Virus genome (UHGV): UHGV-1963645 | Direction: 5' to 3' (one strand) | Length of the DNA stretch: 64,000 nt | DNA from: a virus | In this document: positions 26,320-30,378 of the stretch, piece by piece | Numbering within the stretch: the stretch's first letter is position 1 | How the letters are laid out: each line of letters begins with the position of its first letter | Notes under the pieces: model-generated | Databases searched by the model: none | Seen by the model: only the letters and a program-made list of their open reading frames with translations | Told to the model about the DNA's origin: nothing | Made by a program: the position numbers and the translations under genes

Positions 26320-27171
26320 ATGATAAATTATGTCTACGGCGAACAACTGTACCAGGAGTTCGTCAGCTTCAGGGATCTCTTTCTAAAAAAAGCTGTTGCA
26401 CGCGCCCAACACGTTGATGCCGCCAGCGACGGTCGTCCTGTACGCCCGGTTGTCGTTCTGCCGTTCAAAGAAACTGACAGCATTCAGGCTGAAATTGATA
26501 AATGGACTTTAATGGCGCGGGAACTGGAACAGTACCCAGACCTCAATATCCCAAAGACTATTTTATATCCAGTGCCTAACATCCTTCGCGGTGTGCGTAA
26601 GGTTACGACTTATCAGACAGAAGCTGTGAACAGCGTCAACATGACTGCTGGCCGCATTATTCATCTGATTGATAAGGACATTCGCATCCAAAAAAGCGCG
26701 GGGATCAATGAGCACAGTGCGAAATACATAGAGAACCTGGAAGCAACAAAAGAGCTAATGAAGCAGTACCCGGAGGATGAAAAATTCCGTATGCGTGTAC
26801 ACGGCTTTAGCGAAACAATGCTGCGCGTCCACTACATTTCCAGTAGCCCTAACTACAATGATGGTAAATCAGTTAGTTACCATGTGCCACTGTGTGGCGT
26901 GTTTATCTGCGATGAAACTCTCCGTGATGGAATTATCATCAACGGTGAATTCGAAAAAGCAAAATTTAGCCTTTATGACTCCATAGAACCGATCATCTGC
27001 GACCGCTGGCCGCAAGCAAAAATATATCGCCTGGCAGATATTGAAAATGTAAAAAAACAAATTGCCATCACTCGCGAAGAGAAAAAGGTTAAGTCAGCCG
27101 CATCAGTTACGCGCAGCCGTAAAACCAAGAAGGGGCAGCCAGTAAACGACAACCCCGAAAGCGCGCAATAA
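26320..27171 (+). CDS. c1: C1 repressor of lysis
   Basis: 283 aa starting MINYVYGEQLYQEFVSF; matches P1 C1; its operator occurs many times in window. Confidence 0.95.
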   Translation: MINYVYGEQLYQEFVSFRDLFLKKAVARAQHVDAASDGRPVRPVVVLPFKETDSIQAEIDKWTLMARELEQYPDLNIPKTILYPVPNILRGVRKVTTYQTEAVNSVNMTAGRIIHLIDKDIRIQKSAGINEHSAKYIENLEATKELMKQYPEDEKFRMRVHGFSETMLRVHYISSSPNYNDGKSVSYHVPLCGVFICDETLRDGIIINGEFEKAKFSLYDSIEPIICDRWPQAKIYRLADIENVKKQIAITREEKKVKSAASVTRSRKTKKGQPVNDNPESAQ

Positions 27172-27203
27172 ATTATGCCCGGCATCAACCGGGCATTCTT
27201 CCA

Positions 27204-28316
27204 TTATTCAGCCGCCACCGGTTTTAACAAGCCAGCATCGAGCAGTTTACGCGTCAACCACTGCTGGCCTTTACCCGTTAATTGAGGCGTCAACCGTATC
27301 TGGTAGCCATCTTCATCATCCAGCACCACTTCTTTCACCGTGAAATACCCCGCGTTGATGTACTGCTGGAACGGCACATTTTTACGTCCACCGGACGCTA
27401 TCAGGATGCCGTTCTCCCGTAACCAGGCAAACAGCGCGTTTTGCTTAAGTCCAACAACCTTTGCAAAATTCCCAATCAGGATCCCTTTAGCTACTGATAC
27501 CCGGTCGGCAAAATCGACCTTAGGAGCGGCGGCTACCAGCTGCTGATTTAGCTGGTGGGCTTTCTGTTCCAGAAGCTGCTTTTGTTCAGCCAGTTCGGCA
27601 GCCAGGCGTAGGGCTTCTGGTAATGTTTGGGGGATTGCAACCGGTTGCTGTTCTTTTTGCCGGAAGTAGCTGTCTTCCAGTTTTTCAAAGAATGCCCATG
27701 CTTCATTTGTGTCCACGATCTTAGACATGCGTGCAGCGCCGCGCTCTGTCCAGAGTGTAAGGCTTCTGGCGTTCTTACCAACAGAGTAACTTCCGGTTAC
27801 TCTGTTCTTAAATTCTCTTAATTTTAAACCAGTTAGAAGAAAGTAATGCTTACCTTCTTCAAAGCGGTCAAGGTTGCGAGACAAATTGTTGCGAATATTG
27901 GCTTCATCGACCCCATACCCTCTAGCAAGAGTTTCGGTTGTCACGACACGTACTCCCTGCCATTCCAGAACGGGAATTTCATCCGGCTGATTCTGAACAA
28001 CCACCAGTTCCGATTCCTGAACTGAAGGTGCATAAATTTTTTCTGATTTAACGTTAGTTGCTTTCATTCTGTGTGCCTCCTTGCGTGCTTCGGCTGCGAC
28101 GGTTGCGTAATTCAGATGACCCTGTTCGAGCAGGTATTCACGGATATCGGTTAGCAGAATGCGGTGAACCGCGTGTTTGTCCTTTCTCCGGTAAAGTTGT
28201 TTGGTGATCATGAAGTAGTTGGCAATAACGCCCGGTATATCCCTGGTACTGATACAGGCAGTGTGCTGTTCAATTGCCTCGATCATCTCTTCACGGGTGA
28301 CTAATGACGTTCTCAT
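27204..28316 (-). CDS. antirepressor-like protein (ORF6N-like middle region, KilAC/ANT C-terminal domain)
   Basis: 370 aa; C-terminal region FADRVSVAKGILIGNFAKVVGLKQNALFAWLRENGIL...FQQYINAGYF typical of KilAC; convergent with c1. Confidence 0.7.
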   Translation of the reverse strand: MRTSLVTREEMIEAIEQHTACISTRDIPGVIANYFMITKQLYRRKDKHAVHRILLTDIREYLLEQGHLNYATVAAEARKEAHRMKATNVKSEKIYAPSVQESELVVVQNQPDEIPVLEWQGVRVVTTETLARGYGVDEANIRNNLSRNLDRFEEGKHYFLLTGLKLREFKNRVTGSYSVGKNARSLTLWTERGAARMSKIVDTNEAWAFFEKLEDSYFRQKEQQPVAIPQTLPEALRLAAELAEQKQLLEQKAHQLNQQLVAAAPKVDFADRVSVAKGILIGNFAKVVGLKQNALFAWLRENGILIASGGRKNVPFQQYINAGYFTVKEVVLDDEDGYQIRLTPQLTGKGQQWLTRKLLDAGLLKPVAAE

Positions 28317-28534
28317 AGTCCCTCCTGAGCAGAAGCGTTAACAGGGAGGCACCAGTAACTGAGAGAATTGCGCGAATCGATAGAAAAGCGGGCAGAGAAA
28401 ATACAGGGAGCATCCGGAAGCTGAGAACGTGCCTCATCTTCTGTCGGTGCAATAACGAAGTGATAGTGACGTTTTTGGCAGGAGTAAAAGCGCCAGATAA
28501 ATTCAGAATGAGCAGGGGTAGGGATAGTAGCCAC
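28313..28534 (-). CDS. hypothetical small protein coupled to the antirepressor-like gene
   Basis: 73 aa, GTG start with AAGGAGG SD 8 nt upstream; stop overlaps downstream ATG (ATGA). Confidence 0.45.
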   Translation of the reverse strand: MATIPTPAHSEFIWRFYSCQKRHYHFVIAPTEDEARSQLPDAPCIFSARFSIDSRNSLSYWCLPVNASAQEGL

Positions 28535-28873
28535 AATGGCAGCCTCCTTTTGCTAATTTAAGGAGCTACCGCGTGAGGTCTCAATCTCAATGGCGGTAGC
28601 ACTGACTGGGTTGAGACTACCGGCGCAAAAGGGAACCGGCCTGCCTTTCGGCAGCCCAGCCAGCACTACCATTGATCTCTGAGCTAAACGCTACGTATGG
28701 CTGTGCGATGGCATGACACAAAAAAAGACGCTTTTGGCGTCTGTGTCGCCTTTTGCATTATCCGGGGTCTCAATCCCGGCACCCGTTTTAATGAGGTGCC
28801 TGATAAGCATAAACCGAAAATGCCTCAAGGCGCAAGAGGTCAGGTTCAATGTAACATCGGTAGTTAAAAAACA

Positions 28874-28890
28874 CAATTTATTAGAGCAAA
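28874..28890 (-). promoter_or_regulatory. C1 operator upstream of the small-gene/antirepressor-like pair
   Basis: CAATTTATTAGAGCAAA just downstream of pacB stop. Confidence 0.6.
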
Positions 28891-28893
28891 TAT

Positions 28894-30378
28894 TCATTCG
28901 TTAAGCCATGCCAGAGCTTCATCAACCTGCGCTTCGTCTTCGACGCTAAGCACTTCATCCTGGGGAACATAATCCGCCAGCATAGCGAAACAATATGTAT
29001 CCCAATGGTCTGGTGAGTGCAGGTTGAGTTTTTTCTTCATATCCTCCTTACTCATCACCTTCCATTGACCTGCGGAGTTAATCCCTACAGGGATTTTCGA
29101 CGCTTCCTCAATAGTTTCATTACCCTTATCCAGTCTCATACGACCAGATTTTACGGCCTCTGCGGCTTGAACGTTGGCATAAGCACGTTTATCAAAGTAC
29201 AGGCTCTTATCTTCACGGCTATGCATCTTTTTACCCCAGCGTATACGCTGTACGGTAATACCATAATACTCGTACATCAGATCCGCCGTTGCTTTACCCA
29301 GGCCATCGCCGTCTATCGCTATGGTGATATTTGGGAATCGCTCAGGATTACATTCTGCGAAAATTTTGGCGGCAAGCTGCGTTTCTGTAACGTCTGTGTA
29401 TTCCAGCATTCGATAGTTGATTACACGGCGTTTATTTCGCTGGCCGGACACCATCATGATATTGATAACGGACTTATCCCGTCCCGTACCACCAGCAACG
29501 TCCACACATGCAAGCCAGCCCCATCCTTTTGCAATCTTGACTTTCCGCCGCGTTGCACGTTCAACCTCATCACGTCCAAGAAGGAAGCCATCCTGTGATT
29601 TAGGGAATAGGCCGCGTACCTTAATCATGTACATAGGGTTATCACGCCCGCCGTACTCCGCCAGCTTCATTTTGATAAATGCTGGCGTTACCAACGGTGA
29701 TTCCTCACTGTTAAGCGTGATCGCCGTATAAACGCCATCAGGGTTACCAGGACGCTTGGCCAGTTTATGGTGTGTATCGTAGAAATAGCCGCTTGGGCGT
29801 GTAGGCTGTGACAGCAATAAGATGCGGTTATCCTGTCCGGTAAGAGCACCGGTGATGATACCGAAAGCTCTATCACTGACACCGGAGGCTTCATCGATAA
29901 TATACAGAAGATGATCTGCGTGTTCACCGGCGAGAGCTTCTTCACTTCCCAGACGAAAGCCCTTCGGTACTACAGTCCATACACCTTTACCAGTAATCTC
30001 ATAGAAAGCGGTTTCTGTCAGAACAAAATAATCAGCAAGCCATGGGAAACGGCTGGGGGCAGTAGCCCAGTTTATCTTGATGTACTTGAATATACCGGTC
30101 ATTACCTGCTGAATTTTGTTCGCAACGATAATGGCACGGGCACCTGGATACATGATTATGAACAACATGATCATGATAGAAGTCATGTCTGATTTCCCGG
30201 TACCGTGACCAGACGAAACAGATGTCTTGCTACCCTGTTCCTGCACAGACTCAATAATCAGATCCTGCTGCCAGGTAGGTGTTTTGCCGAACAAAACATC
30301 AGCGGCAGCAATCCAGTCATAACGATATAGCGCCACCAGCTCGCGCCAACGTGGATCCGTTACGCAACTTCTGGCCAT
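28894..30378 (-). CDS. pacB: PacB, terminase large subunit
   Basis: 494 aa; Walker A GHGTGKS, Walker B IIDEA; matches P1 PacB length and N-terminus [11 protein letters not shown]. Confidence 0.95.

What the first reader, a model, noticed from the sequence alone, without database searches (positions are those of the whole stretch)
27204..28890. Antirepressor-like module inserted between convergent c1 and pacB, under its own C1 operator
Between the c1 stop (27171) and pacB stop (28894) lies a minus-strand pair: a 73-aa gene (GTG start, AAGGAGG SD) coupled by ATGA overlap to a 370-aa protein whose C-terminal part has the KilAC/ANT antirepressor signature and whose middle resembles an ORF6N domain. 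A C1 operator-like 17-mer (28874-28890) sits immediately upstream. As I recall P1, c1 and pacB are adjacent with no such gene, and its antirepressor lies in a different immunity region, so this looks like an accessory module expressed only when C1 repression is lifted. It could act on the phage's own repressor circuitry, on repressors of resident prophages, or as an anti-defence factor.
Basis: partly seen in the sequence, partly recalled or inferred. Interest (0 to 1): 0.65.

Follow-up and report, generated by a model that had tools for sequence, protein, structure and literature searches.

The report
Second antisense-controlled antirepressor operon in P1-like phage
The stretch between the repressor gene c1 and the packaging gene pacB is a complete extra copy of phage P1's "immI" immunity operon (a small antisense RNA, the icd gene and a nested antirepressor gene). 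It is absent from reference P1 but present in about half of P1-like plasmid prophages, so it is real and coherent but largely ordinary.

Summary
On the minus strand there is a 73-aa ORF (GTG start, AAGGAGG) joined by an ATGA overlap to a 370-aa ORF6N+KilAC protein. A C1-operator-like 17-mer lies just after the pacB stop. Reference P1 has only 24 bp between c1 and pacB.

It encodes a C4 antisense RNA (Rfam RF01695, 75 bits) preceded by an IsrK/c4-a1b1-type element with a terminator. The C4 loops are complementary to sites a1/b1 and a2/b2, and b2 covers the Shine-Dalgarno of the 73-aa gene. That gene is icd (70% identical to P1 Icd). The 370-aa protein is an Ant1 homologue (61%) with the conserved internal Ant2 start at codon 84.

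So this is a full paralogue of the P1 immI operon, not a simple C1-only accessory gene. Its C4 specificity is D6-like (a TTGAGAC, b GCAAAAGG). That differs from the canonical immI of its 99.6%-identical relative JL22.

In 158 related modules the C4 loops and all four targets co-vary, giving 16 types. The module sits at this junction in 300 of about 600 P1-like elements in complete E. coli genomes. It is annotated in RCS47 and mentioned by Venturini et al. 2019. Interest is modest.

The parts
28874..28890 (-). C1 operator-like 17-mer TTTGCTCTAATAAATTG, 3 nt after the pacB stop codon
   Evidence: It matches the consensus ATTGCTCTAATAAATTT at 15 of 17 positions. The motif occurs 17 times in the window against 0.31 expected. 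It aligns with P1 Oc4/Op51. An equivalent 17-mer lies about 197-220 nt upstream of C4 in 60 of 61 modules at this junction. C1 binding itself was not tested.
28848..28876 (-). Promoter equivalent to P1 P2c4 (former P51a): -35 TTGTGT at 28871-28876, 17-nt spacer, -10 TACATT at 28848-28853. The -35 overlaps the operator by 3 nt.
   Evidence: Position-for-position alignment with the annotated P1 P2c4 (TTTGTAT / TATCTT), which also overlaps Oc4 by 3 nt. The generic promoter scan did not call it. This is inferred by homology.
28806..28835 (-). Promoter equivalent to P1 P1c4 (former P51b): -35 TTGCGC at 28830-28835, 18-nt spacer, -10 TATGCT at 28806-28811. It lies downstream of the operator.
   Evidence: It aligns with P1 TTGACC/TATAGT and with D6 TTGCGC/TATATT. 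This is inferred by homology. The generic scan did not call it.
28721..28799 (-). Leader element of IsrK / c4-a1b1 type. It carries target sites a1 (TTGAGAC, 28767-28773) and b1 (GCAAAAGG, 28749-28756) and ends in an intrinsic terminator (28720-28742).
   Evidence: Rfam RF01394 isrK scores 59 bits against a gathering score of 50. RF03163 c4-a1b1 scores 22.3 bits, below its gathering score.
28589..28676 (-). C4 antisense RNA gene, with loop b' CCCUUUUGC (28625-28633) and single-stranded a' GUCUCAA (28611-28617)
   Evidence: Rfam RF01695 scores 75 bits against a gathering score of 45, over the full model 1-87. The fold is -46.4 kcal/mol with z = -5.6, and a' and b' are unpaired. PGAP mis-annotates this stretch as a 39-aa 'ash family protein'.
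28543..28584 (-). C4 target sites a2 (TTGAGAC, 28578-28584) and b2 (GCAAAAGG, 28546-28553). b2 overlaps the icd Shine-Dalgarno AAGGAGG (28543-28549).
   Evidence: The sites are exactly complementary to a' and b'. The layout is the same as the annotated P1 a2/b2 sites, described there as 'repression of icd ant translation'.
28313..28534 (-). icd (73 aa, GTG start)
   Evidence: It is 70% identical to P1 Icd, which is also 73 aa. NCBIfam phage_ICD_like scores 49.6 bits against a cut-off of 25. The ORF is intact at 73 aa in 60 of 61 modules at this junction; the start is GTG in 14 and ATG in 47.
27204..28316 (-). ant1 (370 aa). Its ATG overlaps the icd stop (ATGA, 28313-28316) and is preceded by AGGAGG.
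   Evidence: It is 61% identical to P1 Ant1. The N-terminal 84 aa and the C-terminal ~145 aa are conserved, and the middle is replaced by ORF6N. It is intact with the ATGA overlap in 50 of 54 complete loci.
27204..28067 (-). Nested in-frame ant2 (287 aa). The ATG is at codon 84 (28065-28067), with AAGGAGG 8 nt upstream (28076-28082).
   Evidence: M84 is invariant in the alignment with P1, JL22, RCS47 and D6 Ant, and P1 ant2 also starts at codon 84 of ant1. Use of this start here is inferred.
27175..27196 (.). Hairpin ATGCCCGGT-TGAT-GCCGGGCAT between the ant stop and the c1 stop; a likely bidirectional terminator separating the convergent ant and c1 transcripts
   Evidence: Terminator-like site with 9 pairs, 6 of them G-C. 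It replaces the 24-bp P1 spacer.
26320..27171 (+). Flank: c1 repressor gene, convergent with the module
   Evidence: NCBIfam phage_rep_C1 scores 611 bits. It is 282/283 identical to P1 C1.100.
28894..30378 (-). Flank: pacB (terminase subunit), co-directional with and immediately upstream of the module
   Evidence: ORF. It is annotated as pacB in JL22, RCS47 and P1.

Best explanation
The 1,722 bp between c1 and pacB are a complete, functional second copy (paralogue) of the phage P1 immI immunity operon.

Predicted mechanism. Transcription starts at two promoters. The upstream one overlaps a C1 operator, so C1 represses it in the prophage. The downstream one is not covered by the operator. By analogy with P1 P51b it stays on and keeps making the leader and the C4 RNA.

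The leader carries decoy sites a1/b1 and an intrinsic terminator. Readthrough transcripts contain C4, which is cut out as an ~80-nt stable RNA.

C4 pairs through its exposed a' and b' segments with a2/b2. b2 covers the icd ribosome-binding site, so icd is not translated. ant1 is translationally coupled to icd (ATGA overlap), so Ant1 and the nested Ant2 are not made either.

When the operon enters a cell that lacks the cognate C4, Icd and Ant1/Ant2 are made. Ant then inactivates the P1-type C1 repressor.

This module's C4 specificity is D6-like (a TTGAGAC, b GCAAAAGG). It differs from the canonical immI found next to kilA-repL in its closest relative. The phage therefore carries two independent antisense locks and two antirepressor keys. 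This should widen the set of related prophages it can override, and the set of superinfecting relatives it can hold in check.

Shown here: the anatomy, the homology, the complementarity and its covariation, conservation and prevalence.

Inferred: promoter use, C4 processing, Ant-C1 binding and the ecological consequence.
For: Every defining part of immI is present in the P1 order, as laid out in the parts list. These are the operator overlapping the -35 by 3 nt, two promoters, a1/b1, C4, a2/b2 over the icd SD, icd, the ATGA coupling, and ant1 with an internal ant2 start at codon 84.

The C4 loops and all four target sites change together between variants. The window and D6 have a TTGAGAC / b GCAAAAGG. 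RCS47 has b GTCAAAGG. 673R5 has a TTGGCC / b GTCTAAGG. P1 has TTGACAG / GTTAGTG. In 158 of 158 testable IMG/VR modules, every C4 has at least 7 nt of complementarity at a1, b1, a2 and b2, across 16 loop combinations.

The ORFs and the operator are conserved across the 61 modules at this junction (counts in the parts list).

The likely target is conserved. C1 is 282/283 identical to P1 C1.100, and the Ant C-terminal ~145 residues are nearly identical to P1 Ant. The P1 record states that Ant1/Ant2 antagonise C1 by complex formation.

JL22 is 99.6% identical over this region. It also has a canonical c4-icd-ant1-kilA-repL with a different C4 (b CACAATC, a CTGTCAA). In 23 contigs and 38 isolate genomes with more than one module, the C4 types always differ, apart from one tandem duplication.
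Against: No experiment supports any step in this element. C1 binding to a site with 2 mismatches, promoter activity, C4 processing and Ant-C1 interaction are all extrapolated from P1.

The generic promoter scan did not call either promoter.

The middle third of Ant is an ORF6N domain that P1 Ant lacks, so its target or mode of action could differ.

The canonical immI lies outside this 64-kb window, so the 'two locks' picture rests on the relative JL22 and on other genomes.

The finding that co-resident modules always differ is confounded. The pacB-c1 site and the canonical site draw on two different C4 lineages (81-nt D6-like versus 79-nt P1-like backbone), so the difference may reflect ancestry rather than selection.

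My crude complementarity matrix shows only partial discrimination for some non-cognate pairs.
Confidence: 0.85

Rival explanations
1. It is an IsrK-type activating switch rather than a C4-type repressing switch. As in Gifsy-1 isrK-orf45-anrP, the short terminated leader RNA would act in trans on the readthrough mRNA. It would open the ribosome-binding site of the small upstream ORF and so switch on the coupled antirepressor. C4 would play a secondary role, or serve only as the partner that the leader titrates.
For: The leader reaches the Rfam gathering score for isrK (59 bits against 50) and ends in a good intrinsic terminator. In Gifsy-1, short IsrK activates translation of the small ORF and the coupled anrP, and a stable RNA (STnc1160) complementary to IsrK lies just downstream (PMC4825925). 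Here a1/b1 on the leader are complementary to C4, so a terminated leader could sequester C4.
Against: C4 scores far above threshold, and its loops match a2/b2 over the icd SD exactly as in P1, where repression by C4 is established. The three-way covariation includes a2/b2, which the repression model needs. The two models are not exclusive, because the leader may act as an anti-antisense decoy within the C4 circuit.
Confidence: 0.25
2. It is an accessory antirepressor aimed at other elements. On this view the ORF6N-KilAC protein inactivates repressors of unrelated resident prophages, or acts as an anti-defence factor, rather than acting on the P1-type C1.
For: The middle ORF6N domain is absent from P1 Ant. 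KilAC/ORF6N proteins are widespread antirepressor-type proteins in many phages. The c4-icd part is 95% identical to that of D6, a different plasmid-prophage group.
Against: The N-terminal 84 aa, the Ant2 start and the C-terminal ~145 aa are those of P1 Ant (61% overall, near-identical C-terminus), and C1 is identical to P1's. The ORF6N-type and P1-type middle cassettes occur at both the pacB-c1 site and the canonical site, so the middle domain is not tied to this locus. No similarity to an anti-defence family was seen in Pfam or NCBIfam; PADLOC was not searched.
Confidence: 0.1
3. It is a decaying duplicate: a non-functional remnant of an immI copy picked up by recombination and carried passively.
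For: The module is dispensable, since P1 and P7 lack it. Its icd start is GTG rather than the ATG seen in most relatives. A few copies elsewhere are truncated.
Against: The ORFs and the operator are intact across 61 loci. The a1/b1/a'/b'/a2/b2 covariation is perfect across 5 specificity combinations at this site alone, and that requires selection on the RNA-RNA pairing.
Confidence: 0.04

Closest known systems
Phage P1/P7 immI operon (Oc4/Op51 - P51a/P51b - a1 b1 - c4 - a2 b2 - icd - ant1/ant2)
   Same: It has the same parts in the same order and with the same overlaps. These are the operator overlapping the -35, a C4 RNA of the same Rfam family, target sites complementary to the C4 loops with b2 over the icd SD, a 73-codon icd (70% identical), the ATGA coupling, ant1 with ant2 starting at codon 84, and a KilAC C-terminus that is nearly identical.
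   Different: The location is between c1 and pacB rather than between sim and kilA-repL. The C4 backbone is the 81-nt D6-like lineage, with different a and b specificity. The leader matches the IsrK model. The middle of Ant is an ORF6N domain. It is present in addition to a canonical immI in relatives such as JL22.
Phage D6 immI-like region (c4 - icd - Rha-type ant)
   Same: The leader, C4 and the 5' part of icd are 95.4% identical over 328 bp, and the a/b specificity is identical.
   Different: D6 lacks the P1-type C1 operator and the P2c4-like promoter upstream. Its antirepressor is a Phage_pRha/HTH protein only 19% identical to this Ant.
Gifsy-1 isrK-orf45-anrP locus of Salmonella (Hershko-Shalev et al. 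2016, PMC4825925)
   Same: There is a leader sRNA with its own terminator (Rfam isrK hit above threshold). Readthrough mRNA encodes a small ORF translationally coupled to an antirepressor, and a stable complementary RNA lies just downstream of the leader.
   Different: There the leader acts as an activator, the small ORF is orf45 rather than icd, and the output is the antiterminator AntQ. Here a full-length C4 and an icd homologue are present, and no antQ-like gene is adjacent.
Satellite phage P4 immunity (CI RNA with seqA/seqC)
   Same: It belongs to the same Rfam clan (CL00128). It follows the same logic: a processed small RNA pairs with sites upstream and downstream of itself in its own transcript (PMC4825925 discussion).
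   Different: P4 CI causes premature transcription termination of replication genes. No icd or ant is involved. The best Rfam match here is C4, not CI.
The same insertion in RCS47, JL22, vB_EcoM-673R5, pTZ20_1P and hundreds of P1-like plasmids
   Same: The junction and gene pair are the same, at 88-99.9% nucleotide identity. Venturini et al. [quoted passage not shown] RCS47'.
   Different: Those records annotate only ant and sometimes icd. The C4 gene is unannotated or called an 'ash family protein'. Different copies carry different C4 specificities: 3 a alleles and 3 b alleles at this site.

Membership tests
P1-type immI operon | C4 antisense RNA gene upstream of icd | tested here: met
   RF01695 scores 75 bits against a gathering score of 45, with a full-length match. 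The fold has z = -5.6 with exposed a' and b'.
P1-type immI operon | Target sites a1/b1 upstream and a2/b2 downstream of c4, complementary to the C4 loops, with b2 overlapping the icd ribosome-binding site | tested here: met
   There is exact 7-nt (a) and 8-nt (b) complementarity at all four sites, and b2 at 28546-28553 overlaps the SD at 28543-28549. The sites co-vary in 158 of 158 related modules.
P1-type immI operon | icd: a ~73-codon ORF homologous to P1 Icd | tested here: met
   It has 73 aa and is 70% identical to P1 Icd. NF033153 scores 49.6 bits against a cut-off of 25.
P1-type immI operon | ant1 translationally coupled to icd, with a nested in-frame ant2 and a KilAC C-terminus | tested here: met
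   There is an ATGA overlap, 61% identity to P1 Ant1, an invariant M84 with AAGGAGG 8 nt upstream, and PF03374 at E 1.5e-31. Actual use of the ant2 start was not tested.
P1-type immI operon | C1-controlled operator overlapping the upstream promoter | tested here: inconclusive
   The sequence and position match P1 Oc4/P2c4 (15 of 17 to consensus, the same 3-nt overlap with the -35, conserved in 60 of 61 loci). C1 binding and repression cannot be tested with these tools.
P1-type immI operon | Map position between sim and kilA-repL | tested here: not met
   The module lies between c1 and pacB. It is therefore a paralogous locus, not the canonical immI.
P1-type immI operon | Ant1/Ant2 antagonise the C1 repressor | not testable with these tools
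   The evidence is only indirect: C1 is 282/283 identical to P1's and the Ant C-terminus is nearly identical.
IsrK sRNA locus (Gifsy-1) | IsrK-like RNA with its own Rho-independent terminator, followed by a small ORF coupled to an antirepressor | tested here: met
   RF01394 scores 59 bits against a gathering score of 50. The terminator is at 28720-28742, and icd-ant are coupled.
IsrK sRNA locus (Gifsy-1) | The short leader activates translation of the readthrough mRNA in trans; an antQ antiterminator is the output | not testable with these tools
   No antQ-like gene is adjacent, because pacB lies upstream. The activating role cannot be assessed in silico.
Phage antirepressor, ORF6N + KilAC architecture (Pfam PF10543 + PF03374) | Both domains above the gathering score | tested here: met
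   ORF6N scores 66.6 bits (gathering 27.8) and ANT scores 109.3 bits (gathering 25.3).

The most novel reading that the evidence does not exclude
P1-like phage-plasmids may carry up to three or four immI-type modules, at the canonical site, the pacB-c1 site and a site near c8/cre. Each would have a different C4 'a/b' specificity drawn from a combinatorial pool; at least 16 combinations were seen here. Together these would act as a multi-locus antisense-RNA 'barcode'. The barcode would decide which relatives a phage can override by expressing an unrepressed Ant, and which it can exclude because its resident C4 set covers all of the invader's modules. The pacB-c1 module would be the main vehicle of this arms race. 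It would also link the immunity networks of P1-like and D6-like plasmid prophages, because they share C4 types. Its placement convergent with c1 might add transcriptional interference with c1 once the module is derepressed.
Probability: 0.35. Interest if true: 0.6.

Novelty: new member of a known kind. Interest (0 to 1): 0.33.

Why it matters
P1/P7 heteroimmunity is the classic case of phage immunity specificity set by an antisense RNA. This result shows that about half of natural P1-like elements carry a second complete immI operon, with a C4 specificity different from the canonical one. Many of these elements are antibiotic-resistance-bearing phage-plasmids such as RCS47 and JL22.

If the two C4 specificities really act independently (only partly discriminated in silico, untested experimentally), then superinfection immunity, cross-induction and co-residence among these plasmids are governed by more than one RNA lock. 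That can be tested directly with C4 swaps and superinfection assays.

Practically, it also flags a systematic annotation error. The C4 gene is unannotated or called an 'ash family protein', and the leader is called a hypothetical protein.

The module itself is common and its presence is already on record, so it does not change the understanding of how immI works.

Tried and rejected
(1) I tried to read the classical P1 immI papers: Lobocka 2004 (PMC523184), Heinrich 1994 (PMC196329) and Citron & Schuster 1992 (PMC312442). None is held. A search for P51a/P51b/Op51 returned nothing relevant. Statements about P51b being constitutive, RNase P processing of C4 and Rho-dependent polarity therefore rest on my own knowledge and on the P1 GenBank annotation.

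(3) The generic sigma-70 scan did not call the two promoters. I kept them only as homology-based inferences.

(4) Pfam and NCBIfam gave nothing for the 68-aa ORF at 28691-28897 or the 81-aa ORF at 28291-28536. I treat both as spurious overlaps of the leader and of icd.

(5) Pfam on the middle of P1 Ant found no domain, so I cannot say what the ORF6N cassette replaced.

(6) A crude contiguous-pairing matrix, cognate against non-cognate, puts the maximum on the diagonal. It does not cleanly separate some 'a' alleles once G-U pairs are allowed. I do not use it as proof of orthogonality.

(7) I considered selection for different C4 types within one genome. I rejected it as a demonstrated result, because the two sites use different C4 lineages, which makes the difference automatic.

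(8) I saw no sign of a transposon-type insertion. The homology break is exactly at the two stop codons, which fits cassette exchange by recombination. No dedicated search for terminal repeats was run.
Full report
WHAT IS THERE

The window is a P1-like phage-plasmid (Punavirus). Over 27100-29000 it is 99.6% identical to Escherichia phage JL22 and 99.9% identical to an E. albertii plasmid.

c1 (26320-27171, +) is 282/283 identical to P1 C1.100. pacB (28894-30378, -) converges on it. In P1 NC_005856 the two stop codons are 24 bp apart. Here they are 1,722 bp apart, and homology to P1 breaks exactly at the two stop codons.

The 340 nt between the operator and the 73-aa gene are a structured RNA region.

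Rfam finds a full-length C4 antisense RNA at 28676-28589 (75 bits against a gathering score of 45). Upstream of it, at 28799-28721, is an element that passes the isrK threshold (59 bits against 50) and also resembles c4-a1b1.

C4 folds with z = -5.6. The loop CCCUUUUGC (b') and the segment GUCUCAA (a') are left unpaired. Exact complements occur twice. a1 TTGAGAC and b1 GCAAAAGG lie in the leader, which ends in a hairpin plus T7 terminator. a2 and b2 lie downstream of C4, with b2 overlapping the AAGGAGG of the 73-aa gene.

This is the layout annotated in P1 immI. Alignment with P1 also places the operator, its 3-nt overlap with a -35, and a second promoter downstream at equivalent positions.

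THE TWO PROTEINS

The 73-aa product is Icd. It is 70% identical to P1 Icd, has the same length, and hits NCBIfam phage_ICD_like.

The 370-aa product is an Ant1 homologue, 61% identical to P1 Ant1. The N-terminal 84 residues and the C-terminal KilAC part are conserved. The middle is an ORF6N cassette that P1 lacks.

Met84 is invariant and is preceded by AAGGAGG. P1 ant2 starts at the same codon. The nested ant1/ant2 arrangement is therefore retained.

The region is thus a full paralogue of immI: operator and promoters, a1/b1, c4, a2/b2, icd, ant1/ant2, then a terminator hairpin (27175-27196) before c1.

IS IT FUNCTIONAL?

I collected 159 icd-containing loci from IMG/VR and located C4 upstream of nearly all of them.

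In 158 of 158 testable modules, the module's own C4 loops have at least 7 nt of complementarity at a1, b1, a2 and b2. This holds although the loops fall into 16 different a/b combinations. Six-site covariation of this kind is hard to explain without selection on the RNA-RNA pairing.

Sixty-one modules lie at the pacB-c1 junction. Of these, 60 have an intact 73-codon icd, and 50 of 54 complete loci have an intact coupled ant. Sixty keep the operator-like 17-mer about 200 nt upstream of C4.

At this site I found three a alleles and three b alleles in five combinations.

ORIGIN AND SPECIFICITY

The leader, C4 and the start of icd are 95.4% identical to the immI-like region of phage D6 and have the same a/b specificity. 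D6 lacks the P1-type operator and has an unrelated Rha-type Ant.

The module is therefore a mosaic of three pieces. The first is a P1-type operator and promoter. The second is a D6-lineage specificity cassette. The third is a P1-type ant with a swapped middle domain. Both middle-domain types occur at both genomic sites.

The canonical immI is outside this window. The window corresponds to JL22 coordinates about 25.6 kb running down through the origin to 61.2 kb. JL22 has the canonical copy at 43.4-44.9 kb, next to kilA-repL. Its C4 has P7-type b (CACAATC) and P1-type a (CTGTCAA).

Twenty-three contigs and 38 isolate genomes carry more than one module. In all of them the C4 types differ, apart from one tandem duplication. 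This is expected anyway, because the two sites use different C4 lineages, so it does not by itself show selection.

A third site, between the res/mod side and c8/cre, holds further modules in other plasmids. It does not in this window, where Rfam finds only one C4.

HOW IT MOST LIKELY WORKS

By homology with P1 (plus my own knowledge of the immI literature), C1 represses the operator-overlapping promoter. A downstream promoter keeps supplying C4 in the prophage. C4 occludes the icd ribosome-binding site, and without icd translation the coupled ant1/ant2 are not expressed.

In a cell without cognate C4, Icd and Ant are made and Ant inactivates C1.

The leader's IsrK-like terminator suggests an additional layer. 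A short a1/b1-bearing RNA could titrate C4. In Gifsy-1 the homologous IsrK activates the coupled antirepressor (PMC4825925).

A second module with a different C4 specificity should give the phage a second way to defeat a related resident's immunity. It should also give a second RNA with which to silence invaders. This last step is inference.

HOW NEW IS IT?

It is not new as a sequence feature. Among 5,426 complete E. coli genomes, 599 have pacB and 300 have the c1-module-pacB arrangement. In PLSDB, 307 records cover at least 80% of the query.

RCS47 annotates the gene as ant. Venturini et al. [quoted passage not shown] RCS47)'.

I did not find one reading in the searchable literature. That reading is a complete second immI with its own C4 of different specificity, together with the combinatorial diversity of C4 types. 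The older P1 literature and the D6 genome paper could not be read, so this absence is weak evidence.

Database annotation misses the RNA. PGAP calls a 39-aa 'ash family protein' exactly over C4. JL22 calls hypothetical proteins over the leader and icd.

VERDICT

The element is a new paralogous member of a well-known kind of system. It is common in nature and already noted in passing. Interest is modest. The multi-locus C4 specificity picture is the only part that might repay further work.

Noticed in passing
window 28553-28672 (-): RefSeq/PGAP annotates a 39-aa 'ash family protein' (WP_071527722.1) in plasmids that are 99.8% identical here. The ORF coincides with the C4 antisense RNA gene, so the protein call is probably a translation of a conserved RNA. 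The ORF is in frame with icd and separated from it by a TAG. In the 673R5-type variant, by eye on the sequence (not checked by translation), the frame appears to stay open into icd.
   Followed up: partly
window 28691-28897 (-) and 28291-28536 (-): JL22 annotates these as hypothetical proteins gp120 and gp121. The first overlaps the operator, the promoters and the IsrK-like leader. The second is an out-of-frame overlap of icd. Neither has a Pfam hit (NCBIfam was run only on the first ORF and found nothing), so they are probably spurious calls.
   Followed up: partly
L170 (E. albertii plasmid p2RM10705) 14687-16431; loci L072-L087: A third immI-type module (C1 operator, C4, icd, ant) sits between the res/mod side and c8/cre in some P1-like plasmids, with yet other C4 types such as CATGTAC/CTGTCAA. 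It matches the 'icd-ant1/2 homologs in RD-1' of pSvP1 in Venturini 2019. It is not present in this window.
   Followed up: partly
L017 (2863 and 4429), L165, L073: L017 has a tandem duplication of the pacB-c1 module with identical C4 types. L165 has two different C4 genes in tandem at the pacB-c1 site. L073 has two divergently oriented modules that share the a allele but differ in b. These suggest active recombination and duplication of the modules.
   Followed up: no
window-wide, e.g. 10813, 25745, 42171, 58366, 61888: There are seventeen C1-operator-like 17-mers (up to 3 mismatches) in the 64-kb window against 0.31 expected. They include a perfect site at 58366-58382 that overlaps an inverted partner at 58355-58371, which looks like a bivalent operator.
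   Followed up: no
window 26320-27171 (+), codon 193: C1 differs from the P1 reference C1.100 only at residue 193 (Gly here, Cys in C1.100). The window probably carries the wild-type residue at what may be the site of the thermosensitive c1.100 mutation.
   Followed up: no
window 27640-28060 (-); loci L009, L056, L040: The middle third of Ant is a swappable cassette. The ORF6N type and the P1 type (no Pfam domain) occur both at the pacB-c1 site and at the canonical site, independently of the C4 type.
   Followed up: partly
window 55475-55547, 57551-57623, 57629-57700 (-): Three tRNA genes are called by Rfam. They correspond to the tRNA cluster annotated in JL22 (Asn, Thr, Met).
   Followed up: no
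window 28532-28534: icd starts with GTG here and in 14 of 61 modules at this junction. The other 47 start with ATG. This might lower basal Icd/Ant translation in this sub-lineage.
   Followed up: partly
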